Assembly: GCA_017560085.1 (NCBI GenBank)
Contig: JAFYPA010000075.1
Coordinates: 86 to 64,085 of the forward strand
Direction: 5' to 3'
From: Clostridia bacterium
Lineage (GTDB): Bacteria > Bacillota > Clostridia > Oscillospirales > CAG-382
Length of the DNA: 64,000 nucleotides
The notes under the pieces were generated by a model. It searched no databases and was not told the origin of the DNA. It saw nothing but the letters and a program-made list of their open reading frames with translations. The position numbers and the translations under genes are program-made. Positions 21,249 through 60,351 of the stretch are shown here, piece by piece; positions within the stretch are counted from its first letter, which is position 1, and each line of letters begins with the position of its first letter.

Positions 21249-21454
21249 TTCCGCATCCTCCGATTGATTTGAATTCCCGGTGCTTTTATTATAATCATTC
21301 GGGAATTTTTTGTCAATGATTTTTGTGAAAATAATCCATATTTATATAAAATAAATCCATTTACTTTGATTTGCGATACCCTTATAATGTAGATATAATG
21401 ATATTTATTTTAAGATTTACAAACTATCTTATTATGAAAGGAACGGTTGTAATT

Positions 21455-24400
21455 ATGAGAAAAATATCCGCATTGGTTATGGCATTGCTTCTTGCCTCAC
21501 AGAGCCTTTTTACGGCATTGGCTCTCACGGAGCAGAACTATGATTTTGCAAAGTACAATCCTCTTGTAGAGGAGAATTTCCCGCTTGCAAGAGAGGCGGC
21601 AGGTGAAGGTATTGTACTTCTTGAAAACAAAAACAACACGTTGCCTCTCGCCGCTGACAGCAAGGTTTCTCTTTTCGGTATCGGACAGATAGACTATGTT
21701 GCGGGCGGTACAGGCTCGGGTATTATCAATACCGCATACAAGGTGAACTTCCTTGACGGTATGCTTGATGCTGAAAAGAACGGAAAGCTCACCGTTGATT
21801 CTGCAACGGCAAAGGTATACTCTGATATATACGACGAATGGACACAGGCTGTTGCCGATGCCGAGGCGGCAGGAACAGCAAAGCCTTCTCTTGATGAGTA
21901 CGCCCTCACGGATGAGGATGTAGCAAAGGCAAGAGCTGAAAGCGACACGGCAGTATATTACATCAGAAGAATCCAGGGTGAAGGAAGCGACAGAAAGGCT
22001 GTGAAGGGCGACTATTACATCAGCGACATCGAGGCTTCAAACCTTGCGAAGATTGATGAGGCAGGCTTTGAGAACTTTATAATTGTAATAAACGCAGGTA
22101 CAGCGGTTGATACCTCCTTCTTCAAGGATTACGAAACAGCCGACTCCCTTATTATGGCGTGGCTTCCCGGCGTTGAGGGCGGTCTTGCACTTGCGGATGT
22201 TATGACGGGCGATGTGAACCCTTCGGGTAAGCTTACCGATACGTTCCTTAAGTCCTACGACTGCTATCCTTCCGCAGAAAGCTTCACCGAGTCACAGTCC
22301 TTTGTAAACTACACCGAGGACATTTACAACGGTTACAGATATTTTGAAACCTTCGACCCGGAATACACAATGGTAAACTATGAGTTCGGCTACGGACTTT
22401 CATATACCGAATTTACACTTTCAGGCGACAGCGCTACCGTTTCCGACGGCAATGTAAATGTTTCCGTAAGCGTTAAGAACACGGGCGAGTGTGCGGGTAA
22501 GGAAGTAATTCAGGTGTACTACGGCGCACCTCAGGGACTTCTCGGAAAGAGCGCAAGGGTTCTTGCGGGATATGCAAAGACAAAGCTTCTTGCTCCCGGT
22601 GAAACACAGAGGATTACAGTTACATTCCCCGTATCCGATATGGCATCCTTCGATGACCTCGGCAAGACGGGAAACAAGTCCGCATATGTTCTTGAAGCGG
22701 GCGACTACAATTTCTACATAGGTAACTCCGTGCGCAATGCGGGTGAAAGAGGCATAAAGGGTACATATACCGTTTCCGAAACCGTTGTAACACAGCAGCT
22801 TACCTCGCTTCTCACACCCAATGCTCTCGATAAGAGACTTGTTGCAAAAGAAGAAGCGGACGGAAGCCTCACAGCGGAATACGAGCGTCTTTCCGTTACA
22901 ACCGATGCCGACGGAAGCTACAAAATCGACCCCAATGCCGCACAGACAATAATTGATGCGGAAAACTACACGGATGGTACAGACGGACTTGAAACTCCCG
23001 TTCTTCCCATGCAGGACAACCTTAAATACGTTAAGGGAATGAAGAACGGCGAATACATAAGCTTTGCCTTCTCCAACGAAAATGCGGCTATGTATACAAT
23101 CGCACTCAACATCTCCAACGGTGGCGAGGCGGTTTCTCCCTCCTTCAATATTTATCTTAACGATACTCTCGTATGCAGTGACATCTCCGTTGCATCAACG
23201 GGAAGCGGTACTGCAGACGGTACATTCGTGTTCAGCGAAACCGAATTCGGACTTCTTGTATTCGAAAAGGGCAAGAGCACCGTAAAGATTGAATCCGCAA
23301 ACGACGGACTTCTTGACATTGACAGCATTATCTTAAGACCTGTTACAGACCTTCCCGTAATCAAGGCGGACAAAAAGACGGTTATCGAAGCGGAAAAATA
23401 CGATGTAGCCTATAACAATCCCGATGACGGCAACAATATGCTTATTAGTACCGAATCCGCTCTTGGCGAAACACTTGTTGCAAAGATGCAGGGTAAGGGC
23501 AACTACATAGAATACCGTTTCCTCGTTGAAGAGGCGGGAACATATGCGTTCACCTTCAACTATGCCGCAACGGGAAATATGACAAATCCCTATTCCATAA
23601 GCATAAACGGAACAGTTCAGGATGTAAGCTATACACTTGCAAAAACATCTCCCGAGGGTACAACAAGTGCCGACGGTATGGTGTTCTATAACACCTGTGC
23701 AGACGCAGAGCCTATAGACATTGTTCTTCCCGCGGGCTTTGTAACAATGAGAATTACCACAATCGGCGGTTCTCCCAACCTTAACAGATACACCTTTGAA
23801 AAGAAGTTCGAGCTTCCTTCAGGCTTTACACTGGTTTCGGGCACGGAAAACACCGAAATTGAGGCGGAAAATGCTTCCGCTATGGCTAAGGGTGTGTGGG
23901 CTGAAGTAAAGACCGTTGACGGCGTGGAAACAAAGGTACTCAACGCACTTACGGGCGAGGGCAAGTTCCTTGAATACAAGCTCTGGTTTGAAAAGGCGGG
24001 AGAGTACGGCGTTGTATTCAATGTTGCTTCTACCGCTAACGGCACAAATCCCTTCAGATTCCTTGCAAACGGCAACGAAATAGCTGTTTCCGACTACACA
24101 TTTACAAAAACAACTCCCGAGGGAGCAACCACATCCGACACGGATGCATACTATCACACATACCTCGATATGCCCGCGATAGCTATGGAATTCCCCGCAG
24201 GTAAGGTTATCTTCAGACTTGAAACAACAGATACAAAGCAGAAGCCCAATTTCAACAAGTTCACAATAAAGCCCGTTGCCGAATACGAGGCGGAAGCTCC
24301 CGCAGGCTACAGACAGGTGCTTGACACCGAGCCTCTTGTAATTCAGGCTGAAAGCTATGATGCAAACTTCAATGTACAGACACAGAAAATGAATCAGCTT

Positions 24401-27328
24401 ACCCTTGCCGGGGGTGAATCTCAGGGCGAGGTTATAATGGAAAACATCAAGTCAAGCGGTTCATATCTTGAATACAACGTATGGTTCAAGTACGGCGGAG
24501 ACTATACAATAACCTATAACTACGCTTCAACAAGAAATCACGAAGCTCCCTTTGAGGTATACCTTGACGGCGAAAAGCTCATAAGAAGCGAAAGCTACAC
24601 ACTTGCAAAGACCTCTCTCGAGGGTGCTACATGGAAGGATACATACGACTACTACTTCGTGTTCAAGAATTCCGATCCCATTCCCTATACCTTCCCGCAG
24701 GGCAGCACAACACTCAGAATTTCCGCAGATAACGGCGCAGGCTCAAACTTCGATATGCCTAACCTCAACTACATCACAATTACCTGCGTTGAGGCGGACA
24801 TCCCCGAAATAACAGCTCCCGACGGCGGTGATGACGAAGGGGAAGAAGACGAGGGCGAGGGCACGGAAACAGAGCCCGAAATCTCCGCAGACAGACTTCC
24901 CGATTATACCGAAAAGGAAGAGGATGCCGAGCTTATAATGTACGAGGACTACATTTCCGGAAAGGCAACTCTTGACGAATTTGTAGCACAGCTTACAAAC
25001 CTTGACCTTATCCGTCTTGCGGGCGGTCATCCTCCGGTTAACGGCTGCTCCTCCTCTATGGGCAGACTTCTTAAGTATCACATCCCGACAGTAAACACAG
25101 GTGACGGCGGCGCGGGTATCAGAACAGGTGCGGATGCCATGACAACATGGTGGCCCTGCTCCACAATGCTCGCCTGCACATGGAATACAGACCTTATAAG
25201 ACGTGTCGGCAATGCCGTAGGTCTTGAAGGAAAGAGACTCCGCTGGGATACATGGCTCGCTCCCGGACTTAATATCCACCGTAATCCCCTTTGCGGAAGA
25301 AACTTCGAGTATTATTCCGAGGATCCGCTTGTTTCCGGTATTTGTGCCGCAGAAATAACCATCGGTGCAAGAGCACAGGGAATGCACACTGTTCCCAAGC
25401 ACTTTGCCGTAAACAACAAGGAGAGCGGAAGAAGCATAAGCGACAGCCGACTTTCCGAAAGAGCACTTCGTGAAATCTACCTCAAGGGCTTTGAAATCCT
25501 TGTAAAGAAGGCACAGCCCAAGTACATTATGACCTCCTACAACCTCATAAACGGCACGGAAGCCGCTGAAAGCTACGACCTTCAGACAGCAATCCTCCGA
25601 GGTGAATGGGGCTTTGACGGAATCACAATGACAGACTGGAACAACACAAACTCCAGACCCGCAAAGGAAATCAAGGCGGGAAGCAACATCAGAATGCCCT
25701 ACGGCGAAATAAATGAGCTTGTCCGTGACCTTTACAACGGCGACATTACAAGAGAAGAGCTCAAGGAAAATGCAAAGGTAATTCTCCCCGTGCTTGCGGA
25801 CTCCATGGCGTTTGAGGGTGCTTTGAACGTATATGAGGTAACAAGAGAATCCGATATATATATTCCCGTTATAAACTACAACTACGTTAACGACGATAAC
25901 TTCGGAACGGTAATAAAGGACTTCACATCCTCCGATAACAAGTTCTATGGCGTAGGTGAATACTACGAGCATCACTCGTGGACACCCAACCTTACATATT
26001 CCGCAGACGGCGGTGTTTCTCTCAATATCTGGTCAAAGAATGTAACCAACGATAACGTTGAATTCGATGACAGCTCGCTGTTCCTTGCATATAACGTGGA
26101 TGTTGAGGAAAGCGGAAGCTATAAGATTTATCTGTTCACACCTCAGAAGAGCCAGACAAACACAATCTATGTTGACGACGTAAAGGCGGGCGATATCCGT
26201 TCGGGCAAGGCTTCAAGAGATGAAACCTATGTCAGAAGTGAGGCTCTCACGGTAAATCTTACAAAGGGCAGACACACAATAAAGCTTGGCGGCGTCGGTG
26301 TTGTTGAAAGACTCTGCATCACTCCCGACTTCACAAAGGAGCAGGAAGCTGTTGATGGCAGAATCTTCACAAAGATTGACAGCGAATGGGGTCTTAAGTT
26401 CGAGAAAATGTCTGACGAAATAGGCACCTTCAACCGTATAACGGTTGACCCCGATGATGTCGATAATATGCTCGCAACGGACCACTGGAGCATTGCAAAC
26501 GACGAAACCGTATATCCTTACCTTGCATTCTGCTACAGAACGAACTACGACGGCGAAATGACAGCATACGCAAAGCGTTCGGGACAGTCAACGGGTGATG
26601 CAAATGCATATACCTTCAAGGCAGACAAGGCAGATGTGTGGACAACAAGTGTAATAAAGCTTACGGGTACGGGCGACGATACAATCTTCCGTCAGCTTCA
26701 CTTCTATCCCTTCGGCAAGGGCAATACCCATGCAAATGCACTTGAAAAGAACTATTATTTCGACCTCTACCATTACGGCTTCTTCAAGACGGAGGCAGAT
26801 GCACTCGCATACTGCAGAAACCACGCTCCCAAGGCAATCAAGGGTAACATCATCCTTGAGCGTGACATTGAAAACGGATACTATGACGATGCACTCCTCG
26901 GTTATGCGGGCTATGCGGAAATATCACTTCTTGACAGCAACGGCAAAACCGTATCCAAGTTCTACGAATACGGCACATATGTCAGCGAAACGGACGGCAA
27001 GGCAACAATCGGCTTCACCTTTGATGCCGAGGACGGAGATTACACCCTTGTTGTAAGAAAGCCCGGCTACGCTGAAAAGCAGGTAGCGATAACCGTAGAA
27101 AACGGCACGGCACACATAGACGATATCCACCTTCTCGCAGGTGATATTACGGCAAGCTTCAGCGAAGTACACGGCGACGGCATAATAGACATAGACGACT
27201 TTATAAGAATACTCCGTGCATTTGCACACGATGCGGATGAAAGAATAAAGATTTACACGGATATAAACGAGGACGGACTTGTAAACGTATCGGATATTGC
27301 GATACTCAAGAAGAACTTCGGAAAATAA
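21455..27328 (+). CDS. secreted multidomain GH3 glycosidase, domain-permuted, with four CBM-like modules (the last three tandem repeats) and a C-terminal dockerin
   Basis: Signal peptide MRKISALVMALLLASQSLF. The GH3 alpha/beta-sandwich and FnIII-like domains come first (KLTDTF, YGLSYTEF). Four IxAExY-type CBM-like modules follow, then an acidic linker. Next is the GH3 barrel (KHFAVNNKE, GFDGITMTDW). The protein ends in a dockerin duplicate (HGDGIIDIDD...DINEDGLVNVSD). The track ORF start at 21371 is upstream of the signal peptide. Confidence 0.85.
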   Translation: MRKISALVMALLLASQSLFTALALTEQNYDFAKYNPLVEENFPLAREAAGEGIVLLENKNNTLPLAADSKVSLFGIGQIDYVAGGTGSGIINTAYKVNFLDGMLDAEKNGKLTVDSATAKVYSDIYDEWTQAVADAEAAGTAKPSLDEYALTDEDVAKARAESDTAVYYIRRIQGEGSDRKAVKGDYYISDIEASNLAKIDEAGFENFIIVINAGTAVDTSFFKDYETADSLIMAWLPGVEGGLALADVMTGDVNPSGKLTDTFLKSYDCYPSAESFTESQSFVNYTEDIYNGYRYFETFDPEYTMVNYEFGYGLSYTEFTLSGDSATVSDGNVNVSVSVKNTGECAGKEVIQVYYGAPQGLLGKSARVLAGYAKTKLLAPGETQRITVTFPVSDMASFDDLGKTGNKSAYVLEAGDYNFYIGNSVRNAGERGIKGTYTVSETVVTQQLTSLLTPNALDKRLVAKEEADGSLTAEYERLSVTTDADGSYKIDPNAAQTIIDAENYTDGTDGLETPVLPMQDNLKYVKGMKNGEYISFAFSNENAAMYTIALNISNGGEAVSPSFNIYLNDTLVCSDISVASTGSGTADGTFVFSETEFGLLVFEKGKSTVKIESANDGLLDIDSIILRPVTDLPVIKADKKTVIEAEKYDVAYNNPDDGNNMLISTESALGETLVAKMQGKGNYIEYRFLVEEAGTYAFTFNYAATGNMTNPYSISINGTVQDVSYTLAKTSPEGTTSADGMVFYNTCADAEPIDIVLPAGFVTMRITTIGGSPNLNRYTFEKKFELPSGFTLVSGTENTEIEAENASAMAKGVWAEVKTVDGVETKVLNALTGEGKFLEYKLWFEKAGEYGVVFNVASTANGTNPFRFLANGNEIAVSDYTFTKTTPEGATTSDTDAYYHTYLDMPAIAMEFPAGKVIFRLETTDTKQKPNFNKFTIKPVAEYEAEAPAGYRQVLDTEPLVIQAESYDANFNVQTQKMNQLTLAGGESQGEVIMENIKSSGSYLEYNVWFKYGGDYTITYNYASTRNHEAPFEVYLDGEKLIRSESYTLAKTSLEGATWKDTYDYYFVFKNSDPIPYTFPQGSTTLRISADNGAGSNFDMPNLNYITITCVEADIPEITAPDGGDDEGEEDEGEGTETEPEISADRLPDYTEKEEDAELIMYEDYISGKATLDEFVAQLTNLDLIRLAGGHPPVNGCSSSMGRLLKYHIPTVNTGDGGAGIRTGADAMTTWWPCSTMLACTWNTDLIRRVGNAVGLEGKRLRWDTWLAPGLNIHRNPLCGRNFEYYSEDPLVSGICAAEITIGARAQGMHTVPKHFAVNNKESGRSISDSRLSERALREIYLKGFEILVKKAQPKYIMTSYNLINGTEAAESYDLQTAILRGEWGFDGITMTDWNNTNSRPAKEIKAGSNIRMPYGEINELVRDLYNGDITREELKENAKVILPVLADSMAFEGALNVYEVTRESDIYIPVINYNYVNDDNFGTVIKDFTSSDNKFYGVGEYYEHHSWTPNLTYSADGGVSLNIWSKNVTNDNVEFDDSSLFLAYNVDVEESGSYKIYLFTPQKSQTNTIYVDDVKAGDIRSGKASRDETYVRSEALTVNLTKGRHTIKLGGVGVVERLCITPDFTKEQEAVDGRIFTKIDSEWGLKFEKMSDEIGTFNRITVDPDDVDNMLATDHWSIANDETVYPYLAFCYRTNYDGEMTAYAKRSGQSTGDANAYTFKADKADVWTTSVIKLTGTGDDTIFRQLHFYPFGKGNTHANALEKNYYFDLYHYGFFKTEADALAYCRNHAPKAIKGNIILERDIENGYYDDALLGYAGYAEISLLDSNGKTVSKFYEYGTYVSETDGKATIGFTFDAEDGDYTLVVRKPGYAEKQVAITVENGTAHIDDIHLLAGDITASFSEVHGDGIIDIDDFIRILRAFAHDADERIKIYTDINEDGLVNVSDIAILKKNFGK

Positions 27329-27382
27329 AAATTATCGGGGGCTTGCATAAGAGCAGGCTCCCGAGTTTCTGTTATATATATA

Positions 27383-28276
27383 TCAATCCGCAACGCAAAG
27401 TCCCATATCCCGAAGAACGGATTTTGCCTCTTCAATTTCCGCATCCGCAGGAATAACCGTGGGAAGAGTATCAACCATATCCAGCGACTTATATTTCGTG
27501 GAAGCATAATTATGATACGGCAACACCTTAACTCTCGTTATATTGGAAAGTCCCTTCAAAAGCTCCCCGATTTTCCGTACCTCGCCGTCATTGAAGCCGG
27601 GAACATAAGGATACCTTATCTCAATGCTCTTTCCCAAAGAATCAATATATTTCAGATTCTCAAGAATCACCGCATTGTCCTGTCCCGTGCATCTTTTGTG
27701 TACATCGGAGTCTATCGCTTTAAGGTCGTACAGAAACAAATCCGTGTACGGAATAACCTTGTCAAGTGCCGCCTTGGAGACAAATCCGCAGGTGTCAACC
27801 GCAGTGTGCAGGTTTTCCTCCTTGAAGCGCTTCAGAAGTGCCTCGCAGAAGTCCGGCTGCATAAGACATTCACCGCCGGAAAGGGTTACACCGCCATTTT
27901 TGGAGCAGACGTAAAAATCCTTGTCCTTGAGAACATCCGCAACTATCTCTTCGACCTCTGCCTCCTTGCCGTAGTAGGTCAATACCTTACCGGGGCAGAC
28001 CGTGGCACATTTTCCGCAGAGAGTGCATTTGCTTCTGTCAAATATATGCTTTCCGTCCGAATCTATGGTGTGCGCACCGCTCGAGCACGCCCTTACACAG
28101 CTTCCGCAGGAGGTGCATTTGTGCTCAAGGAACCCAAGCTGACTCTGCTTTCCTATGCTTTCGGGGTTGTGACACCACAGACATTTAAGCGGGCAACCTT
28201 TGAGAAATACCGTTGTACGGATGCCCGGACCGTCGTGTACGGCAAAGTGTTTTATGTCAAATATAAATCCTCTCAT
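27383..28276 (-). CDS. glycyl-radical enzyme activating protein (radical SAM)
   Basis: 297 aa: DGPGIRTTVFLKGCPLKCLWCHNPE, plus ferredoxin-like Cys clusters (CTSCGSCVRAC, CTLCGKCATVCP). Confidence 0.92.
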   Translation of the reverse strand: MRGFIFDIKHFAVHDGPGIRTTVFLKGCPLKCLWCHNPESIGKQSQLGFLEHKCTSCGSCVRACSSGAHTIDSDGKHIFDRSKCTLCGKCATVCPGKVLTYYGKEAEVEEIVADVLKDKDFYVCSKNGGVTLSGGECLMQPDFCEALLKRFKEENLHTAVDTCGFVSKAALDKVIPYTDLFLYDLKAIDSDVHKRCTGQDNAVILENLKYIDSLGKSIEIRYPYVPGFNDGEVRKIGELLKGLSNITRVKVLPYHNYASTKYKSLDMVDTLPTVIPADAEIEEAKSVLRDMGLCVAD

Positions 28277-30525
28277 AAATTCGCTTCCTCCAGCTCTGCA
28301 CGGCGTATGAATTCATCCTGAAAATTCTTTTCCATCTGTGTAAAGAACCAGCTCCATCCGCTGATACGCACCTGAAGATTCTTGTGGTTTTCGGGGTGTA
28401 CCTGCGCATCACGGAGCATATTCGCATCCTGAACATTGCCCTGGAAGCCGTAACCGCCACGCTTCATAAAGGTGCGGAGAAGTCCGAGCATAGCATCAAG
28501 TCCGTCCTCACCCTTGACCGCAGAGGGGTGAAGAATATAGTCAAAGGGACAACCGTATGCAAGTCCCGTAGCATCAATCTTTGTAACGGAGTTTATAAGA
28601 GAAGTAATACCGTGTCTGTCCTGACCTATAGCGGCACTCATATTCTTTGAGAGCAAATCTCCTCTTTTTCTGCCGTCGGGAGTAGCACCGCACTTGTCCG
28701 CCCATCTGTGTGAAAACCAGATTGACTCACCGTTTACAACAAAGTGACCACCCCGTACATTCTTTCTTGACGTTACCATTGTAGTAAAATGATCAAGCAT
28801 ACGGACAGCGATTGAGTCTACCGTGTCAATGTCGTTGCCGAATTTTTCCTCGTCGCCCAGCATAGTCATACGCATTTCCTCGTAGCCTTCCCAATCGTCA
28901 AGAAGAGCGTCACGGAGAGTGCAGAGGTCAAAATCCTTGTTGTCGTAAACGTGCTTTTTAACCATCATAAGCGAGTCCGCCGCCGATGCATGACAGGAGA
29001 GGAACATTACGGTATTATTATACTTAACACCATTGTAATAAGCATCCTTGCCGTTTTTTACGCTGTCGGGCATAGATGCGGAATATATCGGTGCGGGGTT
29101 TATATCAAGAAGATGCGAGTCGTAGAAATCGGAGATAATAAAGGCTTTGTTTATAAGACATTCCGTTTGTGCGACATATGCCCTTTCAAAGTCCTCATAT
29201 GTCCTGAATTCTGAAATATCACCCGTATCAACGCCGATAAACTCACCTGTTGCAGGGTCTGTACCTCTTGTAAAAACAAGCTCAATGCCCTTGAGAAGAT
29301 TAACATACATATGCTCGGGCGTGGTTTCCTTACCTCGGGAAGCAAAGTTGTTACAGCCTGTTCCGACAAGTCTCTTTGTTTCCTCTTCCGTTCTGCCGAG
29401 CTTTCTTGAAATCTTCATTCCAAGCTCTTCGTTGATGAATACAATACAGTTTCTTCCTCTGCGAATCATCTCAAGAGCCTTCTTCAGAAATTCGTCGGGC
29501 GTACCCGGCATAACCTTGATAAAAAGCTTGGGATTTACTATGCAGGACTTGTCGTAAGCATCAAGCATAATATAGGAAAGCTCATTGATGAGAGTGCCGT
29601 TATCGTCAAATCCGCCGAAGTAAATAGGCTGTGCGTGGATGTGTCCCTGATTGGTATATTTTTCGTACAGGAACTGAAAAAGCTCCACCGCATTTTCCCT
29701 TGTGAGCCTGCCTTCCTCAAGGTCTTTTTTGTAAAAAGCGTAGCCGTCAACGTCAAGATTTCCGAGGGTTCGTACCTGAATTATGTCAACGTACTGCTGA
29801 ATAAGGTGGTAAAGATAGGTCAGCATAAGATACTGATACAAGGTCTTGGGCGTGGAGTATCTTATGTTTTCAAGACATTCTGCCATTATCGGCATTTTCT
29901 CGTTGTCGTCTATGTGCTTTTTCGCACACGCAAGGAATCTGTCAAGCAGTCGGAGAATGGCTTCGTAGGAGATTTTTATGCCGTCATAGTAAATCTTCTG
30001 TTCGTCTGTGAGAGTACCGTCCGAAATCTTTTCGGCTCTTGCTCTTTCGCTTCTTTCAAGAAGTCCCGCAAAGCCAAGACCTATAACCGAATCCCAGTCG
30101 GGAACGCTGTGGTCATAGTCACATCCGAAAATGCCCGCACCTGAAGCGGCAATTCCCTTTGCGGAATCAATAAATTCCTGCGGTCTCTGTATTTCCGCAA
30201 GCCACTCACGGTTGAGATAGGAGAGAGGCTTGAAGATAGCTCTCCTTGACAGCTCCGGGACATCCTCTGCGGAGTTGGGCTGCCATCCGCTGAAATTCAG
30301 ACCGAACCAGTCAAGAACGTTGATTTCGATGGCACAGTTGTCAAGAAGGCATTCAATCGCCTTTGCCTTGATAATGGTGTGGGGCTGTCCCCGCATACTG
30401 TCGGTGAGCGCCTTTATCTTTTCGACAAGCTCGTTGTTATCCGTAATACCGCTGTTCGGTTCAAACTCGGGATGAAGATAAAAATTCTGCGACTCGCGTG
30501 TTTCGTCAAATGTATTCCAGAGCAT
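28273..30525 (-). CDS. glycyl radical enzyme (PFL-like fold), substrate unknown
   Basis: 750 aa with the C-terminal Gly-radical motif NLQVRISGWSWFF...DEFIRRAE. 4-nt overlap with the activase gene. Confidence 0.85.
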   Translation of the reverse strand: MLWNTFDETRESQNFYLHPEFEPNSGITDNNELVEKIKALTDSMRGQPHTIIKAKAIECLLDNCAIEINVLDWFGLNFSGWQPNSAEDVPELSRRAIFKPLSYLNREWLAEIQRPQEFIDSAKGIAASGAGIFGCDYDHSVPDWDSVIGLGFAGLLERSERARAEKISDGTLTDEQKIYYDGIKISYEAILRLLDRFLACAKKHIDDNEKMPIMAECLENIRYSTPKTLYQYLMLTYLYHLIQQYVDIIQVRTLGNLDVDGYAFYKKDLEEGRLTRENAVELFQFLYEKYTNQGHIHAQPIYFGGFDDNGTLINELSYIMLDAYDKSCIVNPKLFIKVMPGTPDEFLKKALEMIRRGRNCIVFINEELGMKISRKLGRTEEETKRLVGTGCNNFASRGKETTPEHMYVNLLKGIELVFTRGTDPATGEFIGVDTGDISEFRTYEDFERAYVAQTECLINKAFIISDFYDSHLLDINPAPIYSASMPDSVKNGKDAYYNGVKYNNTVMFLSCHASAADSLMMVKKHVYDNKDFDLCTLRDALLDDWEGYEEMRMTMLGDEEKFGNDIDTVDSIAVRMLDHFTTMVTSRKNVRGGHFVVNGESIWFSHRWADKCGATPDGRKRGDLLSKNMSAAIGQDRHGITSLINSVTKIDATGLAYGCPFDYILHPSAVKGEDGLDAMLGLLRTFMKRGGYGFQGNVQDANMLRDAQVHPENHKNLQVRISGWSWFFTQMEKNFQDEFIRRAELEEANL

Positions 30526-30691
30526 AAAGTGACCTCGCTTCTGTGTTTTATTCTGTGGTCAGTATATACCCGCAGACGGAAAATGTAAATGTGTTTAATC
30601 GAATTATTTGTGTTTTTTCGTACTGTTTTGAAATCTTTGTATTGACCTTTTGCGATATATATGCTAAAATACACACGAAGGAGCTGATAAA

Positions 30692-31477
30692 ATGGAACAC
30701 ATACAGTGGCTTTCGGATTTGTGTATTTCCGAATTGCTTTTCGCCAAGACCTACACCACGGTAAAAAAGTACTATCCGATAAGAAACAAATCCCGACATC
30801 ACCACGGATTCATATACACCCTTGAGGGAGCGGAAACCTACACCTTCCGTGACAAAAAAATAACCTCACCGCCGGGTACAATACTGTACATCCCGAAGGG
30901 TGAGGCATACACAATAGAGCTTGATGACGAGGTAAATGTAGTTGTTACAATGGAATTTGAGCTTCCCGAATGTCAGGCACAGACCCGTCCGTTTCTGATA
31001 AAAGCCGACAAGGGCAACGACACAAAGAACTGCTTTCTGGAAGCGGAGCGTATATGCAACAGCAGAAGGTACGCCTCAAGCGTACTGTGTAAATCCTTGT
31101 TTTACAAGGTGGTATACAACCTTCTCTCAAGGGAGACGGGCTACCACACTCAAAAGAGCGGTCAAAGGCTCTGTGATGCGGTGGAGTACATCCACTCAAA
31201 CTACAGACGGAACGACTTCCGTATAACCGACGCCTATGCCGTATCGGGCATCAGTGCCAAATACTTCGAAACCCTGTTCAGACAGGAATACGGTGTAACC
31301 CCGAAGGAGTATCTGATTCGGCTACGCATAGAATATGCAAAGGTGCTTCTGGAGAATGAAAAGTACACCGTCAGCGATGCGGCGTTTGAGGTTGGGTATT
31401 CGGATATATATCATTTCAGCAAGATATTCAAGGCGAAAACGGGGATGTCGCCGGGGGAGGTTAAGAGGCAGGGGTGA
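30692..31477 (+). CDS. AraC family transcriptional regulator
   Basis: 261 aa with HTH region AYAVSGISAKYFETLFRQEYGVTPKEY...GYSDIYHFSKIFKAKTGMSPGE. Confidence 0.88.
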   Translation: MEHIQWLSDLCISELLFAKTYTTVKKYYPIRNKSRHHHGFIYTLEGAETYTFRDKKITSPPGTILYIPKGEAYTIELDDEVNVVVTMEFELPECQAQTRPFLIKADKGNDTKNCFLEAERICNSRRYASSVLCKSLFYKVVYNLLSRETGYHTQKSGQRLCDAVEYIHSNYRRNDFRITDAYAVSGISAKYFETLFRQEYGVTPKEYLIRLRIEYAKVLLENEKYTVSDAAFEVGYSDIYHFSKIFKAKTGMSPGEVKRQG

Positions 31478-34299: not shown

Positions 34300-35187
34300 A
34301 TGATATATTTGCAAAGCTTCAGAATGCCCACGCAAGATGCTGAGGAAAACTATTTTCTTAACCCCGGAAATTTCAGAGCCAAACAAACCTGCTATACGAC
34401 AAGGTATCCTTTTGGACTCTTTCGTTACAGGGAATTACCGGAGTTCAATTTTACCGATATAACAATATTCTGCGGTAATAACGGAAGCGGAAAAAGCAGT
34501 ATACTGAATGTTATCGCAGAAAAGCTGGAGCTGGAAAGAAATGCACCGTTTAACCGTTCGGACTTTTTTGAAGACTATGTAGGTCTGTGCCGTTATCAGC
34601 TTAACAAGACTATCCCTAAAGAAAGTAAAATCATCACAAGCGACGGCGTTTTTGAAAAGGTGCTTGATATTCGCCGTATCAACGACGGCATAGACAGTAA
34701 AAGATCCGATCTTATTGATGAATATATTGAAGAAAACAGCCCGTATGCCGAGCCTAATCTTTTAAATGGGCTGGACGATTATGACAGATGGAAACGGGTA
34801 AACAATATAAGAAACAAAAACCGAAGTCAATCCCGATTCCTGAAAGAAAACCTAATGAGGAATATTCAGGAGCGTTCCAACGGTGAGAGCGCACTGGCTT
34901 ATTTTGTTGACTCGATTCAGGAGAATGCTTTATATCTCTTGGATGAACCTGAAAACAGTCTGTCACCGCAAAATCAGTTACAGTTGAAATATTTTATTGA
35001 AGATTCGGTAAGGAATTTCGGATGTCAGTTTATTGTCTCCACGCACTCGCCGTTTTTGCTTTCTCTGAAAGGTGCACATATATACGATATAGACGAAACA
35101 CCGCCTTCGGAGAAAAAATGGACAGAGCTTGATTGTGTGAAGGTATATCACGACTTTTTTATGGAGCAGAGTGATAAATTCAATTGA
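34300..35187 (+). CDS. stand-alone ABC-type (AAA_21/COG3910-like) ATPase
   Basis: Walker A GNNGSGKSS, signature-like SNGES, Walker B LYLLDEPENSL and H-loop STHSP. No transmembrane or nuclease domain is visible. Confidence 0.75.
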   Translation: MIYLQSFRMPTQDAEENYFLNPGNFRAKQTCYTTRYPFGLFRYRELPEFNFTDITIFCGNNGSGKSSILNVIAEKLELERNAPFNRSDFFEDYVGLCRYQLNKTIPKESKIITSDGVFEKVLDIRRINDGIDSKRSDLIDEYIEENSPYAEPNLLNGLDDYDRWKRVNNIRNKNRSQSRFLKENLMRNIQERSNGESALAYFVDSIQENALYLLDEPENSLSPQNQLQLKYFIEDSVRNFGCQFIVSTHSPFLLSLKGAHIYDIDETPPSEKKWTELDCVKVYHDFFMEQSDKFN

Positions 35188-35363: not shown

Positions 35364-37397
35364 TCATCCCCTGCTCCTCGAAATAATCTCATTCTGCAAA
35401 GCCTCGGGAAGCGTCACGAAATAATCGGAATACCCGCCCACTCGCACAACAAGATTTCTGTGCCTGTCGGGATGTGCCTTTGCATCAAGAAGCGTTTCCG
35501 TATCAACAACATTTATCTGAAGCTCAAGTCCTTTTTCGGTGTAAACACGCACAAGTGCCGTAATAAGCTCAGGCGTTGCCATTGAGGGAGTAAGCTCAAG
35601 ATTGCAGGCTATACCGCCAAGGAATGGCGCGTGATTCCACGATGTCGTTGATGCAAGCATCGCCGTAGGACCCTTGATGTCACGACCCTGCACGGGATTT
35701 GTGCCGTCACAAAGCGGATCGCCCGAATATCTTCCGTCGGGGGAGGCAGGTGTTCGTGAGCCGTGACGGATATGCTCGTTATAGGAAAAGAGTGCAGGTA
35801 CGACCTTTGCACCACGGTAAGTCGTCAGCGTTTTGCAGATGTTAACAATGCTTTCCGTAAGCCTCTTTGCCATGGCATCGGGTATCTGCTCATCGTTTCC
35901 GTAGTGGGGGAAACGGTCTGTTATTTCACGGCGGAGTGCCTCGTTTTCACTCCAGTTGCTGTCAAGAATTTCGCAAAGCTTAGCCATTGTCATTCGTTTT
36001 TCTTCAAAAATAAGAATACGGATTGCGGTAAGTGCATCTGCCGTGTTGAAAAGCCCGAGGAAATTCGGCTGAATGTCGTTGTAACGCGCACCGCCCTCGT
36101 TAATGGACTTTCCCCGAGCGATACAGTCATCCACAAGCACGGAAACCCGCAGAGGCTCACCGCCGTTTACCGCACGGATTGCCTGCCATTTGTTTTCCTG
36201 CTCGTTGCCCGCTATGATGATTTCCCGCAGCTTTTTCTCGTATGCCGAATAAAACTCATCGAAGCTCTCTGCCTCTGCCGTTTTCATTACATCCAACAGC
36301 AAAAGCACCATATTGTGATAAGGACTCACCGTCCAGACAGACGATTTTCCCGATGCCGTAATTTCCACACAACAGCTGTGAATATAATCACGGGCATCCT
36401 CTACGGCATATCCGTGTGCAATCAGAGAATCGATAATAAGCTTGTCACCGTAAAATGCGGGATGTGTATAACCCTTCGCAATAAGCCGTGCGGCGGCATA
36501 AAGAAGCTCCTTTGAGGTATGCTCGTTTACACAAAGACCGATACTCGGGTCTGCCGTGCGGGTGTGTCCTATGCTGTATAAAAAGTGCCATGTCAGCTCA
36601 TTTTCAACGGGATTTCCGTCGGTATCCACACCGCCAATCATAAAGCCTACGGAGGAGCAGGAGGTGATATATGTCGTATACATCAGACAGAAGCAGTCAA
36701 CAAGCTCCTGTGCCTCTTCGGGCGTGAGAATCCCCGCATCTATGTCTCGGCGGTAATAAGGATAAAGATATCTGTCGGGACGACCTGCCTGATAAAGTCC
36801 CCAAAGAGCAAAGCTGTAGAAATGAATGCTCTGAAGTGCCTCACGGAAGGTCTGTGCGGGATTTGCGGGAACCTTTTCCAGTATGTCCGCAACATCCGTC
36901 ATTCCCATTTTTCTCGCCTTGTCAGCATACCTTTTCGCAAGACGAAGAAGTGCATAAAGCTCTGCCAATGCACCCTTGCAGAAGGGATTGTCGGGCTCAT
37001 TCTTTTGCTCGATTTCGGAAATCAATCCGTTTACGCCAAGCCTTAAAAGCTTTTCAAAATCCAATGCCATATGGTCGTGCCGTCCGGGAGCGCCGGGCAT
37101 ATCGCAGGGCATACCGAGGGCCTTATCCTCTTCCTCTGTCATAGGTGAAAAATCAGGCTGACCGACAATAAGCTCACCGTCAACAATAACCGGCTTCATA
37201 TTGTCAAGAAGATATGCATCCGCAAAGGCACGGCGGAGAATGGCATTTTCAACATCCGGACAGTTATTCCATCCCTGACGGTAAAATAGAGTCATACGGC
37301 GTGCACGGTCGTAAGGAAGCTTACAACGAGCCATTTCCGAATTCATATAAGAGGTGCGAAGAGTCTCCACACGGGGAGTAACTGCATACTCAATCAT
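35364..37397 (-). CDS. glycyl radical enzyme, short form (677 aa), substrate unknown
   Basis: C-terminal motif NLVVRVGGYSDYFVTLPEALQNEIISR. Candidate Cys loop HSCCVEITASG. PFL-like fold features throughout. Confidence 0.85.
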   Translation of the reverse strand: MIEYAVTPRVETLRTSYMNSEMARCKLPYDRARRMTLFYRQGWNNCPDVENAILRRAFADAYLLDNMKPVIVDGELIVGQPDFSPMTEEEDKALGMPCDMPGAPGRHDHMALDFEKLLRLGVNGLISEIEQKNEPDNPFCKGALAELYALLRLAKRYADKARKMGMTDVADILEKVPANPAQTFREALQSIHFYSFALWGLYQAGRPDRYLYPYYRRDIDAGILTPEEAQELVDCFCLMYTTYITSCSSVGFMIGGVDTDGNPVENELTWHFLYSIGHTRTADPSIGLCVNEHTSKELLYAAARLIAKGYTHPAFYGDKLIIDSLIAHGYAVEDARDYIHSCCVEITASGKSSVWTVSPYHNMVLLLLDVMKTAEAESFDEFYSAYEKKLREIIIAGNEQENKWQAIRAVNGGEPLRVSVLVDDCIARGKSINEGGARYNDIQPNFLGLFNTADALTAIRILIFEEKRMTMAKLCEILDSNWSENEALRREITDRFPHYGNDEQIPDAMAKRLTESIVNICKTLTTYRGAKVVPALFSYNEHIRHGSRTPASPDGRYSGDPLCDGTNPVQGRDIKGPTAMLASTTSWNHAPFLGGIACNLELTPSMATPELITALVRVYTEKGLELQINVVDTETLLDAKAHPDRHRNLVVRVGGYSDYFVTLPEALQNEIISRSRG

Positions 37398-38128
37398 TTG
37401 ATGTCGTAGCCTCCGTCTATCATAATGGTCTGTCCGATTATCTGATTTGCTTCCTCGGAGAGCAGGTACATCGCCATCGCACCCACTTCTTCAACCGTGA
37501 GGAAACGCCCCGTGGGAATCCGTGAGTTTTCCATAGAATCACCCTCGTGCCAGCCATTCATTTCGGTCGCCACAGGTCCCGGGCCAATGCCGTTTATGAC
37601 AATACCGTGGGGAGCGAAGAATCTTCCCCAGCCTCGTGTTAAGCTTACAAGTCCGCTCTTTGATGTGACATAAGGACCGTAGCCCGGCTCTGTTGCGGCT
37701 ACAGATGCGATGTTAAGAACATTTCCACGGAGTTTGCCACGGTAGAGATATTTCACGGCGGTCTGCATCATAAAGTATGCGCCCTTGAGATTTATGTCCA
37801 TAACCGTGTCCCATTCGTCTTCGGTCAGGTCAAGCATACCGATACCCCATTCGTGCTGTGGGGTAAGCACACCCGCATTGCTGACAAGGGTATCAAAGCC
37901 GTCAAGCATAGAAACACACTTGTCGAAGTTTTCCTGCATTACGGAAATGTCTGCCACATCCCATACAATCCATTTCGCACCGATTTTTTCAGCGGCGGAA
38001 CGGAGAGCTTCCTCATTTCTTCCCGTGATGACTACCTCCGCACCCGCCTCGATAAGTCTTCGTGCAATCTCATAGCCTATTCCACGGCTTCCGCCCGTGA
38101 CTATTGCTTTTTTCGTTCTGATACTCAT
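37394..38128 (-). CDS. short-chain dehydrogenase/reductase (SDR)
   Basis: TGGSRGIG, NAG and YxxxK (YVTSK) motifs. 4-nt overlap with the downstream GRE gene. Confidence 0.9.
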   Translation of the reverse strand: MSIRTKKAIVTGGSRGIGYEIARRLIEAGAEVVITGRNEEALRSAAEKIGAKWIVWDVADISVMQENFDKCVSMLDGFDTLVSNAGVLTPQHEWGIGMLDLTEDEWDTVMDINLKGAYFMMQTAVKYLYRGKLRGNVLNIASVAATEPGYGPYVTSKSGLVSLTRGWGRFFAPHGIVINGIGPGPVATEMNGWHEGDSMENSRIPTGRFLTVEEVGAMAMYLLSEEANQIIGQTIMIDGGYDIK

Positions 38129-38341: not shown

Positions 38342-39106
38342 ATGTATAAGGACACGATTGTTGCAAGGCAAATTATTCTCGTAAAGCGGGACAGTCTATG
38401 CCCGGGGCAGGCATATATCCCGAGAAAGCCGCGCGACCATCACGCACTTGCATATATTACCGAGGGCAGACTCCGCTACATACGGAACGGCACTGCGGTA
38501 GAGCTTAACACAAACGAGATTATATTCATTCAGGCGGGATGCCTTGACTATTCGGAATGCATCGGAAATACTCCCGTTTCATACATCACGGTGGATTTCA
38601 CCGCAGACAGCGACTCATACGACTGGCCGATACGGTATTCCGGCGGAATGAGCAGCAGAAATCTTTGCGAGATATTCGGGCGTATACTTGAATGCTACAC
38701 TCTCCGAGCCGACGGCTGGGAAATGGATTCCATAGAGCTGTTGTACTCCATACTGAACAATCTGCGACGCTTTGAGTCGGGAAAAGCATATCAGTACCGA
38801 CGAATTCTTCCCGCACTTGAGATACTTGACAAGCAGCTGGCGGACACGACACTTTCGGCATCTGTTCTTGCCGATGCATGCGATATGAGTGTCGGCAGTC
38901 TTAACCGCATTATCCATTCGCTGTACGGTTGCAGTACCTCAAGCTTGCTACAGACAAGGCGGATAGAGCATGCTTGTTATCTTTTGAATAATTCGACCAG
39001 CAGTATTACGGATATTGCCGTGTGGTGCGGGTTTGCGGATATTTATACCTTCAGTCATGCATTTAAGCGGGCTATGGGGTGTGCGCCGTCGGAGTGGTGC
39101 AGGTGA
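38342..39106 (+). CDS. AraC family transcriptional regulator
   Basis: 254 aa with HTH region ...LADACDMSVGSLNRIIHSLYG..., GFADIYTFSHAFKRAMGCAPSEW. Confidence 0.85.
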   Translation: MYKDTIVARQIILVKRDSLCPGQAYIPRKPRDHHALAYITEGRLRYIRNGTAVELNTNEIIFIQAGCLDYSECIGNTPVSYITVDFTADSDSYDWPIRYSGGMSSRNLCEIFGRILECYTLRADGWEMDSIELLYSILNNLRRFESGKAYQYRRILPALEILDKQLADTTLSASVLADACDMSVGSLNRIIHSLYGCSTSSLLQTRRIEHACYLLNNSTSSITDIAVWCGFADIYTFSHAFKRAMGCAPSEWCR

Positions 39107-60192: not shown

Positions 60193-60262
60193 TTATGTGT
60201 TGGGGGTATCCGAACAGCACCGGGATTTTTGCAGCAAATCCCAAATAAATTCCAAATCCCTC

Positions 60263-60291
60263 TTGCAATTTCCGAAAAAACGAGTTAGAAT
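60263..60291 (+). promoter_or_regulatory. outward-facing sigmaA-like promoter at the element's right end
   Basis: TTGCAA, a 17-nt spacer, then TAGAAT, about 50 nt before the attR core and pointing into the spoIVA 3' segment and GH32 gene. Confidence 0.4.
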
Positions 60292-60341
60292 ATAACCAAG
60301 TAAAAACCCACCTCTCCAAGCACTTCTGTTTGCTGCAAGCC

Positions 60342-60351
60342 ATACATATGA
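60342..60351 (+). other. attR core ATACATATGA
   Basis: Identical to 18933-18942. It is preceded by CACTTCTGTTTGCTGCAAGCC, the inverted copy of the left end. Confidence 0.85.

What the first reader, a model, noticed from the sequence alone, without database searches (positions are those of the whole stretch)
27383..30525. Glycyl radical enzyme and activase pair with an atypical putative Cys loop
**Seen in the sequence.**
- A 750-aa PFL-fold protein with the C-terminal radical motif VRISGWSWFF is translationally coupled to a radical-SAM activase (CPLKCLWCHNPE).
- The only Cys-loop candidate I can see by eye is VGTGCNNF. It has Asn where dehydratase- or lyase-type GREs have the Glu of GCVE, and it lacks the Cys-Cys pair of PFL.
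- The pair sits between a secreted GH3 gene and an AraC regulator. No microcompartment genes are present.

**Established knowledge.** The residues of the GRE Cys loop largely determine the reaction class.

**Inference.** This may be an uncharacterised GRE subclass acting on a sugar-derived substrate.
Basis: partly seen in the sequence, partly recalled or inferred. Interest (0 to 1): 0.6.

Follow-up and report, generated by a model that had tools for sequence, protein, structure and literature searches.

The report
Glycyl radical enzyme lacking loop glutamate
This is a real, intact oxygen-sensitive radical enzyme and its activating partner from an uncultured gut bacterium; it belongs to a small untested branch in which the glutamate that all characterised dehydratase-type relatives use for catalysis is replaced by asparagine, so its probably sugar-related reaction is unknown.

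Summary
Window 28273-30525 (-) encodes a 750-aa glycyl radical enzyme (GRE). It overlaps by ATGA a 297-aa radical-SAM activase (27383-28276, -), and an AraC regulator is divergent.

- **Cys loop.** HMMER alignments to three crystal structures place C391-N392-N393 on the G-C-V-E loop. The protein has no CC pair and no GCVE.
- **Clade.** C-N-N is not a one-off. It is fixed in a well-supported clade of 67 sequences (56-93% identity), all from uncultured gut Clostridia. This clade is nested in a large uncharacterised "G-C-Y-E / R-x-C-G-W-N" GRE clade.
- **Other changes.** Where the loop Glu is lost, Glu404 and Glu600 are fixed, at positions aligned to Asp447 and Tyr640 of glycerol dehydratase. The general-acid His (H139) is retained.
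- **Context.** The usual operon is AraC | (second GRE with C-N-E) – cytoplasmic SGNH esterase – EamA permease – this GRE – activase. The window carries a stripped version. GH3 adjacency is not conserved.
- **Sugar link.** Sister-clade proteins occur fused to acetyl-xylan esterase, SASA esterase, GH2 and rhamnosidase domains.
- **Genome.** The host genome has 26 GREs but 8 activases.

No characterised family fits. The substrate is unknown, and a de-esterified sugar derivative is the best guess. Verdict: a new variant of a known kind, of moderate interest.

The parts
28273..30525 (-). GRE-A: a 750-aa glycyl radical enzyme with catalytic Cys391 and radical Gly723
   Evidence: It matches Pfam PFL-like and Gly_radical. 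HMMER alignments to 6vxc, 8iof and 1r8w cover residues 136-747. The AF2 model has pLDDT 84.5 and Foldseek TM about 0.8 to PD, HypD and GD. dN/dS against the 88%-identical orthologue is 0.056.
29344..29358 (-). Cys loop G390-C391-N392-N393-F394, with Asn393 in place of the C-x-E glutamate
   Evidence: The translation is confirmed. The loop aligns to GCVE of HypD, HpzG and GD. C391 is invariant and N392, N393 and F394 are at least 90% conserved in 27 family members. C-N-N is present in 64 of the 67 rows of the clade.
29311..29319 (-). P403-E404-H405, clade-specific residues on the strand after the Cys loop. E404 aligns to GD Asp447.
   Evidence: The translation is confirmed and the mapping is. 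E404 is invariant in the C-N-N family. The position is variable (Gly/Ile/Leu) in the C-Y-E, C-N-E and C-F-N groups.
28723..28731 (-). G599-E600-S601. E600 aligns to GD Tyr640 and HypD Leu643.
   Evidence: The translation is confirmed and the mapping is. E600 is invariant in C-N-N. The position is His in most C-Y-E proteins and Pro in C-N-E.
28348..28368 (-). Glycyl radical motif R720-I-S-G723-W-S-W726
   Evidence: The translation is confirmed. The Gly_radical domain covers residues 626-728. G723 aligns to GD G763 and HypD G765. G-W is typical of the whole 143-row clade.
27383..28276 (-). GRE-activating radical-SAM enzyme, 297 aa. It has C28x3Cx2C plus two ferredoxin-like clusters and overlaps the GRE stop by ATGA.
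   Evidence: It scores 326.6 bits on TIGR02494 (cut-off 174) and matches Pfam Radical_SAM and Fer4. Motifs are and the overlap and RBS. An activase is adjacent to GRE-A in 16 of 20 distinct loci.
30692..31477 (+). Divergent AraC-family regulator, 261 aa
   Evidence: It matches Pfam HTH_18, HTH_AraC and AraC_binding. A homologous AraC is divergent from the operon in 18 of 20 loci.
30526..30691 (.). Divergent control region. It holds a sigma-70-like TTTACA-17-TATACT (30589-30561, -) for the GRE and TTGACC-17-TAAAAT (30642-30670, +) for AraC.
   Evidence: These are consensus scan matches only, 7 sites against 5.3 expected, so the evidence is weak. The sequence is shown.
27335..27364 (.). GC-rich hairpin between the convergent ends of the GH3 gene and the activase gene. 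It is a likely bidirectional terminator.
   Evidence: The terminator scan found 12 pairs, 8 of them G-C. This is a pattern match only.

Best explanation
The locus is a functional two-gene operon under AraC control. It encodes a glycyl radical enzyme and its dedicated radical-SAM activase.

**Proposed mechanism.**
- The activase installs a radical on Gly723 (inferred from family membership).

**Where the enzyme sits.** It belongs to a monophyletic 'C-N-N' subclade of a large uncharacterised clade of compact GREs from gut and rumen Clostridia. That clade has a G-C-Y-E loop and an R-x-C-G-W-N glycine motif.

**What changed in the subclade.**
- The loop glutamate, which deprotonates the substrate hydroxyl in all characterised eliminases and isomerases, became Asn393.
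- Two other acidic residues, Glu404 and Glu600, became fixed, along with His405, Cys511-His512 and Cys612. Glu404 and Glu600 align to Asp447 and Tyr640 of glycerol dehydratase.
- The beta-1 histidine that protonates the leaving group in glycerol dehydratase (His164) is kept as His139.

**Most likely reading (inference).** Acid/base catalysis has moved off the Cys loop. The enzyme still performs radical C-O chemistry (dehydration, ring opening or ether/ester-type elimination). Its substrate would be a sugar-derived compound that enters through an EamA permease and is first de-esterified by a cytoplasmic SGNH esterase. In many relatives it works alongside a second paralogue with a C-N-E loop.

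**This window.** It carries only regulator, GRE and activase. The locus lies inside a roughly 41-kb element that splits spoIVA.
For: **Fold and catalytic residues.**
- Domains, fold and catalytic residues.
- Loop alignment and residue mapping reproduce the literature numbering of HypD (D278, F340, C434, E436, Y450, T645, G765) and GD (H164, H281, S282, Y339, C433, E435, D447, Y640, G763).

**Clade structure.**
- Conservation within 27 family members.
- Group-wise residue table: C-N-N (64 sequences) has E404, H405 and E600, while the other groups do not.
- Tree: G-W clade 143 rows (100*), Glu-less clade 76 rows (95*), C-N-N clade 67 rows (100*). The nearest C-Y-E outgroup already carries E600.

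**Selection.** dN 0.076 and dS 1.36 against the 88%-identical orthologue.

**Operon context in 20 distinct loci**.
- AraC in 18, EamA in 16, activase in 16, a C-N-E paralogue in 8, a short SGNH esterase in 7.
- The esterase starts MKKILLLGDSIR, so it has no signal peptide.

**Sugar link and mechanism background.**
- Sister-clade GREs are fused to AXE1, SASA, 3-keto-disaccharide-hydrolase, GH2 and rhamnosidase domains.
- Role of the C-x-E Glu and of GD His164: PMC13450708.
Against: - No substrate, product or activity is known for any member of the wider clade. The reaction type is inference only.
- The Glu393-loss / Glu404-Glu600-gain pattern rests on one or two evolutionary events. It is not statistically independent covariation.
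- The related Glu-less C-F-N and C-F-S group has neither Glu404 nor Glu600. A relocated base is therefore not a general rule.
- I could not measure distances in the model, because no coordinates are returned. That E404 and E600 line the pocket rests on homology to GD positions, and their substrate contacts are recalled from memory rather than found in the paper library.
- The window's own subgroup (window, L006, L019) lacks the EamA, esterase and C-N-E genes. The operon-based inference is borrowed from orthologues that are 56-75% identical.
Confidence: 0.6

Rival explanations
1. It is a decarboxylase-type or otherwise non-eliminase GRE acting on a carboxylate. An amide at Cys+2 would play a structural or hydrogen-bonding role rather than an acid/base role, as in phenylacetate decarboxylase PhdB (Cys482-x-Gln484).
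For: - PhdB is the one characterised GRE with an amide at Cys+2. Q484E, Q484A and Q484L are inactive (PMC7079210).
- Arg252 and Gln250 are invariant in the pocket region and could hold a carboxylate, for instance of a uronic or aldonic acid.
Against: - Arg252 and Gln250 are shared with the C-Y-E and C-N-E relatives, so they do not track the loss of Glu.
- The arylacetate decarboxylase models score no better than the dehydratase models: IAD 236 bits and HPAD 194 bits, against HypD 300 bits.
- The operon partners are an esterase and an EamA permease, not aromatic amino-acid fermentation genes.
- The residue is Asn, not Gln, and similarity to PhdB itself could not be tested.
Confidence: 0.12
2. 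It catalyses a new type of GRE reaction on a sugar that needs no loop base. Candidates are a 1,2-migration or isomerisation, or an epimerisation. The reaction would use Glu404 (by Cys+13 spacing only, not an alignment, the counterpart of CutC Thr502, which is said to block migration) and the clade-specific Cys511-His512 as extra hydrogen or proton relays.
For: - Cys511, His512, Cys612, Glu404, His405 and Glu600 are specific to the clade and nearly invariant.
- The IslA paper argues that CutC Thr502 sterically prevents migration, whereas B12-dependent ethanolamine ammonia-lyase uses a Glu to assist it.
- Co-encoded C-N-E and C-N-N paralogues suggest two different steps on one substrate family.
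Against: - This is purely positional reasoning, with no geometry and no chemistry.
- Paralogue pairs in known GRE systems often simply handle stereoisomers, such as HpyG/HpzG and YbiW/PflD.
Confidence: 0.15
3. It works on the product of the adjacent secreted GH3 enzyme, so that GH3, GRE and activase form one pathway.
For: The genes are adjacent, and the GH3 has its own AraC regulator.
Against: - The GH3 gene is convergent, with a hairpin between the gene ends.
- In 19 other loci the downstream gene differs. The only similarity is a 164-aa domain match in L019.
Confidence: 0.08
4. It is a decaying or non-catalytic paralogue in a genome that is overloaded with GRE copies.
For: The genome has 26 GREs but only 8 activases, and the Cys loop lacks the usual Glu.
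Against: - The frame is intact.
- Gly723 and Cys391 are invariant across the family.
- dN/dS is 0.056.
- It has its own translationally coupled activase.
- The clade is conserved across many gut MAGs.
Confidence: 0.03

Closest known systems
trans-4-hydroxy-L-proline dehydratase HypD (C. difficile, PDB 6vxc/6vxe)
   Same: - It is the best sequence match among solved structures (1.7e-73, residues 177-744) and a top fold match (TMq 0.82).
- It shares the ten-stranded barrel, the Cys loop position and the Gly loop.
- Tyr450 is conserved as Tyr407.
- The activase gives its best equivalog hit to the HypD activase, although below the cut-off.
   Different: - Identity is only 25%, and the NCBIfam HypD model scores 300 bits against a cut-off of 1100.
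- Glu436 is Asn393, Asp278 is Gln250, Phe340 is Ala298, and Thr645 is Ile602.
- Leu447 and Leu643 are replaced by Glu404 and Glu600.
- The enzyme is about 40 residues shorter, and its first roughly 135 residues align to none of the three nearest solved structures.
B12-independent glycerol dehydratase (C. butyricum, 1r8w) and 1,2-propanediol dehydratase (R. inulinivorans, 5i2g)
   Same: - Same fold (TM 0.80-0.81).
- The general-acid His164 is conserved as His139, Tyr339 as Tyr302, and Cys433 and Gly763 are conserved.
- Both use an activase with extra ferredoxin-like clusters.
   Different: - The base Glu435 is Asn393, His281 is Gln250, Ser282 is Val251, Asp447 is Glu404 and Tyr640 is Glu600.
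- There is no microcompartment and no downstream aldehyde dehydrogenase or reductase.
- Identity is 23-24%.
Phenylacetate decarboxylase PhdB (Cys482-x-Gln484)
   Same: It is the only characterised GRE in the papers read here with an amide instead of Glu at Cys+2. There the amide is essential and cannot be swapped for Glu.
   Different: - The residue is Gln, not Asn.
- PhdB is a decarboxylase of an aromatic acid.
- Sequence relatedness could not be tested here.
- The context of the present enzyme (esterase, EamA permease, glycosidase fusions in sister clades) points to sugars rather than arylacetates.
GRE isomerases YbiW and PflD (1,5-anhydroglucitol-6-P and 1,5-anhydromannitol-6-P ring opening; 8id7, 8id0)
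   Same: - They are the characterised GREs that act directly on sugar rings.
- They give comparable fold scores (TM 0.79-0.82).
- They occur as a paralogue pair handling related substrates, which resembles the C-N-E / C-N-N pair.
   Different: - They keep the C-x-E glutamate (Glu443, Glu433).
- Their substrates are phosphorylated, and their operons include PTS and aldolase genes, according to the review.
- Identity is 22-23%.
Uncharacterised 'G-C-Y-E / R(V/L)CGWN' compact GREs of gut and rumen Clostridia
   Same: - This is the true evolutionary home: a 143-row clade with 100* support.
- Shared residues are Asp136, His139, Gln250, Arg252, Asp258, Gln299 and the G-W glycine motif.
- They share AraC control and a length of about 720-750 aa.
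   Different: - Those proteins keep Tyr-Glu after the Cys, whereas this subclade has Asn-Asn plus Glu404 and Glu600.
- The C-N-N lineage collapses to a single 50%-identity cluster, against more than 100 such clusters for C-Y-E.

Membership tests
Glycyl radical enzyme superfamily (PFL-like) | PFL-like ten-stranded barrel domain | tested here: met
   PF02901 matches at 1.2e-85. The AF2 model (pLDDT 84.5) has TM about 0.8 to PD, HypD and GD.
Glycyl radical enzyme superfamily (PFL-like) | C-terminal glycine radical domain with the R-[IV]-x-G-[YFW] motif | tested here: met
   PF01228 matches at 1e-17. RISGWSW lies at residues 720-726, and G723 aligns to GD G763 and HypD G765.
Glycyl radical enzyme superfamily (PFL-like) | Catalytic Cys at the tip of the Cys loop, about 330 residues before the Gly | tested here: met
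   C391 aligns to HypD C434 and GD C433. It is invariant and lies 332 residues from G723.
Glycyl radical enzyme superfamily (PFL-like) | Cognate radical-SAM activase (Cx3Cx2C) | tested here: met
   TIGR02494 scores 326.6 bits against a cut-off of 174. The motif is C28PLKCLWC, and the gene overlaps the GRE by ATGA.
Glycyl radical enzyme superfamily (PFL-like) | Formation of a stable glycyl radical | not testable with these tools
   This needs anaerobic reconstitution and EPR.
GRE 1,2-eliminases and isomerases (GD, PD, HypD, CutC, IslA, HpsG, YbiW/PflD, HplG) | C-x-E motif: a Glu two residues after the catalytic Cys that hydrogen-bonds to or deprotonates the substrate | tested here: not met
   The position is Asn393, and it is Asn in 64 of the 67 rows of the clade. 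The motif is defined in PMC13450708.
GRE 1,2-eliminases and isomerases (GD, PD, HypD, CutC, IslA, HpsG, YbiW/PflD, HplG) | Substrate-contacting residue at the common beta-1 site (GD His164, HypD His160, CutC Asp216, IslA Gln193) | tested here: met
   His139 aligns to GD His164 and is invariant. The common site is described in PMC8473560.
GRE 1,2-eliminases and isomerases (GD, PD, HypD, CutC, IslA, HpsG, YbiW/PflD, HplG) | Score above the curated cut-off of any equivalog model | tested here: not met
   HypD scores 300 bits (cut-off 1100), HpfG 251 (1000), CutC 219 (1050), and the PFL2-3 subfamily model 309 (678).
Formate-lyases (PFL, TdcE) | Adjacent Cys-Cys pair on the Cys loop | tested here: not met
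   The protein has no CC. TIGR01255 scores 61 bits against a cut-off of 994.
PhdB-type decarboxylase | Amide (Gln) at Cys+2, with essential Trp495, Tyr691 and His327 | tested here: inconclusive
   Cys+2 is an amide, but Asn rather than Gln. No PhdB sequence or structure was on hand to align the other residues.
X-succinate synthases and HPAD | Small accessory subunits encoded beside the catalytic subunit | tested here: not met
   The operon holds only the GRE and the activase. No small ORFs are conserved.
Uncharacterised G-C-Y-E / RxCGWN clade | Monophyly with that clade and the G-W glycine motif | tested here: met
   The 143-row clade has 100* support (FastTree), and G723-W724 is present.
Uncharacterised G-C-Y-E / RxCGWN clade | C-Y-E loop | tested here: not met
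   The loop is C-N-N. The loss of Glu maps to the base of a 76-row subclade.

The most novel reading that the evidence does not exclude
The C-N-N enzymes would be a further functional class of glycyl radical enzyme. They would carry out radical chemistry on a de-esterified sugar or glycoside, such as ring opening, ether or glycosidic C-O cleavage, or a 1,2-shift. Acid/base catalysis would come from Glu404 and Glu600 (perhaps with Cys511-His512) rather than from the loop glutamate that all known eliminases and isomerases share. In their full operon they would act in tandem with a C-N-E paralogue that shares one activase.
Probability: 0.25. Interest if true: 0.75.

Novelty: new variant of a known kind. 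Interest (0 to 1): 0.55.

Why it matters
GREs carry out oxygen-free chemistry that shapes gut metabolism, including TMA, H2S, p-cresol and skatole formation and the breakdown of deoxy sugars.

- **What is known.** Every characterised eliminase or isomerase uses the C-x-E glutamate.
- **What this clade offers.** The glutamate was lost here, and two other acidic residues became fixed at positions aligned to pocket residues of glycerol dehydratase. This gives a natural experiment on how GRE active sites are re-wired.
- **A defined target.** The clade is compact and comes with a conserved regulator, permease, esterase and activase.
- **The wider clade.** More than 100 clusters at 50% identity, some fused to carbohydrate esterases and glycosidases, suggest that radical enzymes take part in anaerobic glycan catabolism in ways not yet described.
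- **This genome.** With 26 GREs in 3.1 Mb, it is an unusually rich source.

Tried and rejected
- **Another catalytic loop.** I looked for a CC, GCVE or C-x-E elsewhere in the protein. There is none; only a non-conserved C217-L-E.
- **Characterised families.** I tested membership by NCBIfam and PDB sequence search. All scores are far below the cut-offs.
- **GH3 linkage.** I tested whether the GH3 gene is linked in relatives. It is not conserved.
- **Microcompartment genes.** They are present only on another contig, beside a GCVE GRE.
- **Literature.** I searched the paper library for a characterised member or for the operon type, using glycyl radical with carbohydrate/uncharacterized/gut and with EamA. 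Nothing relevant was found.
- **GD pocket residues.** I tried to confirm from papers that GD Asp447 and Tyr640 contact substrate. They are not in the library, so that claim rests on my own recall of O'Brien et al. 2004. The recalled numbers do match the residue letters in the PDB chain.
- **Pseudogene or non-catalytic reading.** Rejected on conservation and dN/dS.
- **L007 dN/dS.** The value for L007 was discarded. The ungapped comparison is unreliable at 73% identity.


Full report
**1. What is at the coordinates**

The ORF at 28273-30525 (-) encodes 750 aa. The ORF at 27383-28276 (-) encodes 297 aa. The two overlap by ATGA, and GGAGGAAG lies just upstream of the second start, so they are translationally coupled.

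The larger protein matches Pfam PFL-like (1.2e-85) and Gly_radical (1e-17). The smaller one matches Radical_SAM plus ferredoxin-type cluster domains. It is a member of the GRE-activase subfamily TIGR02494, scoring 326.6 bits against a cut-off of 174. Its motifs are C28PLKCLWC, C54TSCGSC and C84TLCGKC.

A 261-aa AraC regulator (30692-31477, +) is divergent across a 166-bp region that holds promoter-like hexamers on both strands. A GC-rich hairpin separates the activase stop from the convergent 1985-aa secreted GH3/dockerin gene.

**2. The Cys loop**

- HMMER alignments to HypD (6vxc), HpzG (8iof) and glycerol dehydratase (1r8w) all place G390-C391-N392-N393 on their G-C-V-E.
- Parsing those alignments reproduces the literature numbering of both enzymes. 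For HypD these are D278, F340, C434, E436, Y450, T645 and G765. For GD they are H164, H281, S282, Y339, C433, E435, D447, Y640 and G763. The register is therefore sound.
- The protein has no CC and no GCVE. Its only C-x-E (C217-L-E) is not conserved.
- C391 lies 332 residues before G723, as in the reference enzymes.
- An AlphaFold2 model (pLDDT 84.5, pTM 0.84) matches PD, HypD, GD, HpzG, HplG, PflD, YbiW and CutC. TM is about 0.8 at 19-25% identity, and no one class stands out.

**3. It is a clade trait, not an accident**

- A search of 5.8 billion proteins returned 129 relatives. Those at 56-93% identity all read GC(N/S)(N/S)F and R-[IV]-x-G-W-[SN]-W.
- In an alignment of 27 members, C391, G723, W724, H139, Q250, R252, E404 and E600 are invariant. 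N392, N393 and F394 are at least 90% conserved.
- The tree covers 165 GREs: the hits, paralogues from fetched loci, and all 26 GREs of this genome.
  - A 'G-W' clade of 143 rows has support 100*.
  - Inside it, a Glu-less clade of 76 rows (C-N-N, C-Y-N, C-F-N, C-F-S) has support 95*.
  - The C-N-N clade of 67 rows has support 100*.
  - The basal groups and the immediate outgroup read C-Y-E. The glutamate was therefore lost within a lineage that originally had it.
- Against 1.84 billion 50%-identity representatives, the C-N-N lineage collapses to a single cluster (best hit 56%). More than 100 clusters read G-C-Y-E / R-x-C-G-W-N.
- dN/dS against the 88%-identical orthologue is 0.056.

**4. What changed with the glutamate**

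| Group | Position 404 | Position 405 | Position 600 |
|---|---|---|---|
| C-N-N (64 sequences) | Glu | His | Glu |
| C-Y-E | Gly or variable | not fixed | His |
| C-N-E | Ile | not fixed | Pro |

- The C-N-N clade also has Cys511-His512, Asn598, Cys612 and Pro660-Phe661, which its relatives lack.
- Position 404 aligns to GD Asp447. By spacing (Cys+13) it would also correspond to CutC Thr502, although CutC itself was not aligned here. Position 600 aligns to GD Tyr640.
- CutC Thr502 is an acknowledged pocket residue (and mutant entry 5faw).
- That GD Asp447 and Tyr640 contact glycerol is my own recollection. I could not find it in the paper library.
- His139 aligns to GD His164, which protonates the leaving hydroxyl, and it is invariant. 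Asp136, Gln250, Arg252, Asp258 and Gln299 are shared by the whole G-W clade.

My inference is that the general-acid side of an eliminase-type site is kept, while the base has moved from the loop to Glu404 or Glu600.

Three caveats apply:
- The pattern reflects one or two evolutionary events.
- The nearest C-Y-E outgroup already has Glu600, whereas the C-F-N and C-F-S group has neither Glu.
- No coordinates were available for measuring distances in the model.

**5. Genomic context**

I compared 20 distinct loci that carry a C-N-N GRE. They come from metagenome contigs and 16 GTDB species genomes, all of them uncultured Clostridia MAGs from goat, deer, buffalo, human and other guts.

| Neighbour of the C-N-N GRE | Loci (of 20) |
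|---|---|
| Homologous divergent AraC | 18 |
| EamA/DMT permease | 16 |
| Activase | 16 |
| Second GRE paralogue reading G-C-N-E-(M/Q) | 8 |
| 228-251-aa SGNH/GDSL hydrolase | 7 |

- The SGNH hydrolase begins MKKILLLGDSIR, so it has no signal peptide and is cytoplasmic.
- The typical order is AraC | GRE(C-N-E) – esterase – EamA – GRE(C-N-N) – activase.
- The window and its two closest relatives (L006, L019) have only AraC | GRE – activase.
- The GH3 neighbour is not conserved.
- Several sister-clade C-Y-E proteins are natural fusions to AXE1 acetyl-xylan esterase, SASA acetylesterase, 3-keto-disaccharide hydrolase, GH2 N-terminal/mannosidase or alpha-L-rhamnosidase domains. This ties the wider clade to carbohydrate processing.

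Together these features make an imported, esterified sugar derivative the most likely substrate class. This remains an inference.

**6. Genome setting**

- The 3.1-Mb assembly (91% complete) holds 26 PFL-like genes, 8 activases and 78 AraC-type regulators.
- The 26 GREs show about 20 different Cys-loop motifs: CNN, CYN, CNE, CYE, CVE, CNQ, CWE, CWG, CHE, CWD, CQD, CAE, CTE, CNW, CHW, CQE, CCVE and the PFL-type ACCVS.
- BMC shell genes sit only beside the 836-aa GCVE enzyme on C108.
- The C-N-N orthologue is present in 2 of 7 genomes of the genus and in none of the 18 other genomes of the family that were searched. It is an accessory gene.
- The whole locus lies inside a roughly 41-kb insertion that splits spoIVA. 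The N-terminal 413 aa end at 18977, the C-terminal domain is in frame at 60249-60623, and a serine recombinase lies at 47857-49572.

**7. Comparison with what is known**

- The 2026 review of the superfamily states that all characterised 1,2-eliminases (C-O, C-N and C-S cleaving) and the isomerases keep C-x-E, with the Glu hydrogen-bonded to substrate.
- In the papers read here, the one characterised enzyme with an amide at Cys+2 is phenylacetate decarboxylase PhdB (Cys482, Gln484). In PhdB, Q484E is inactive.
- The present enzyme fails the C-x-E test, the Cys-Cys test and every curated equivalog cut-off. I therefore do not file it under any characterised family. It is a GRE, and it belongs to the uncharacterised G-W clade.
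- Literature searches found no characterised member.
- Earlier notes from this scan, on other genomes, describe related C-Y-E/RVCGW and C-x-W cassettes with AraC, esterases and EamA. They agree with the picture here, but they are not independent evidence.

**8. Verdict**

This is an intact, selected, AraC-controlled GRE and activase pair. It comes from a narrow subclade in which loop Glu became Asn and Glu404 and Glu600 became fixed, within a large carbohydrate-linked clade that nobody has characterised. Substrate and reaction are unknown. It is a new variant of a known kind and of moderate interest, mainly as a well-defined target for enzyme discovery.

Noticed in passing
window 17736-18977, 47857-49572 and 60249-60623: spoIVA is split. 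The N-terminal 413 aa (ATPase and middle domains) end at 18977. The C-terminal domain (…GSERQSEDVVKFL…LICIIL) is in frame at 60249-60623. A large serine recombinase lies in between. The GRE pair is therefore cargo of a roughly 41-kb skin-like intervening element.
   Followed up: partly
window 35364-38128 (-), with AraC at 38342-39106 (+): A second, shorter GRE of 677 aa has the loop S-C-C-V-E and the glycine motif RVGGYSD. It overlaps an upstream SDR gene (37394-38128) and has a divergent AraC but no activase of its own. It clusters with three other CVE/CAE paralogues of this genome.
   Followed up: partly
whole genome G000 (128 contigs): The 3.1-Mb genome holds 26 PFL-like GRE genes, 8 activases and 78 AraC-type regulators. 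The GREs show about 20 different Cys-loop motifs, and most are orphan GREs next to a divergent AraC. Same-genus genomes of 1.9 Mb have far fewer GRE candidates (4-7, against 30 here).
   Followed up: partly
G000 contigs C12:28512-30845, C45:24052-26241 and C53:49998-51947: Three paralogues have unusual glycine motifs: RIHGTFVNF, RLWGVSAYF and VKISGYSTRF. The first has an activase directly upstream.
   Followed up: no
proteins P0192, P0194, P0205, P0209, P0211, P0220 and P0236: These are C-Y-E / RxCGWN GREs of 941-1563 aa with N-terminal fusions. The partners are AXE1 acetyl-xylan esterase, 3-keto-disaccharide hydrolase, GH2-type mannosidase, SASA esterase and alpha-L-rhamnosidase. P0236 has an N-terminal 950 aa with no Pfam match.
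   Followed up: partly
loci L001, L008, L009, L011, L012, L014, L020 and L005: Operons encode two GRE paralogues (C-N-E and C-N-N) that share one activase, together with an EamA permease and a cytoplasmic SGNH esterase. L005 carries four GREs and three activases within 12 kb.
   Followed up: partly
window 21371-27328 (+): A 1985-aa secreted protein has the GH3 C-terminal domain placed before the GH3 N-terminal domain, about 900 aa apart. Repeated CBM-like modules lie between them, and a C-terminal dockerin follows. This is a circularly permuted or interrupted GH3 architecture.
   Followed up: no
window 41282-43393 (+) and 34300-35187 (+): A GmrSD-type restriction endonuclease and an AAA_15/AAA_21 ATPase are defence-like cargo on the same element.
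   Followed up: no
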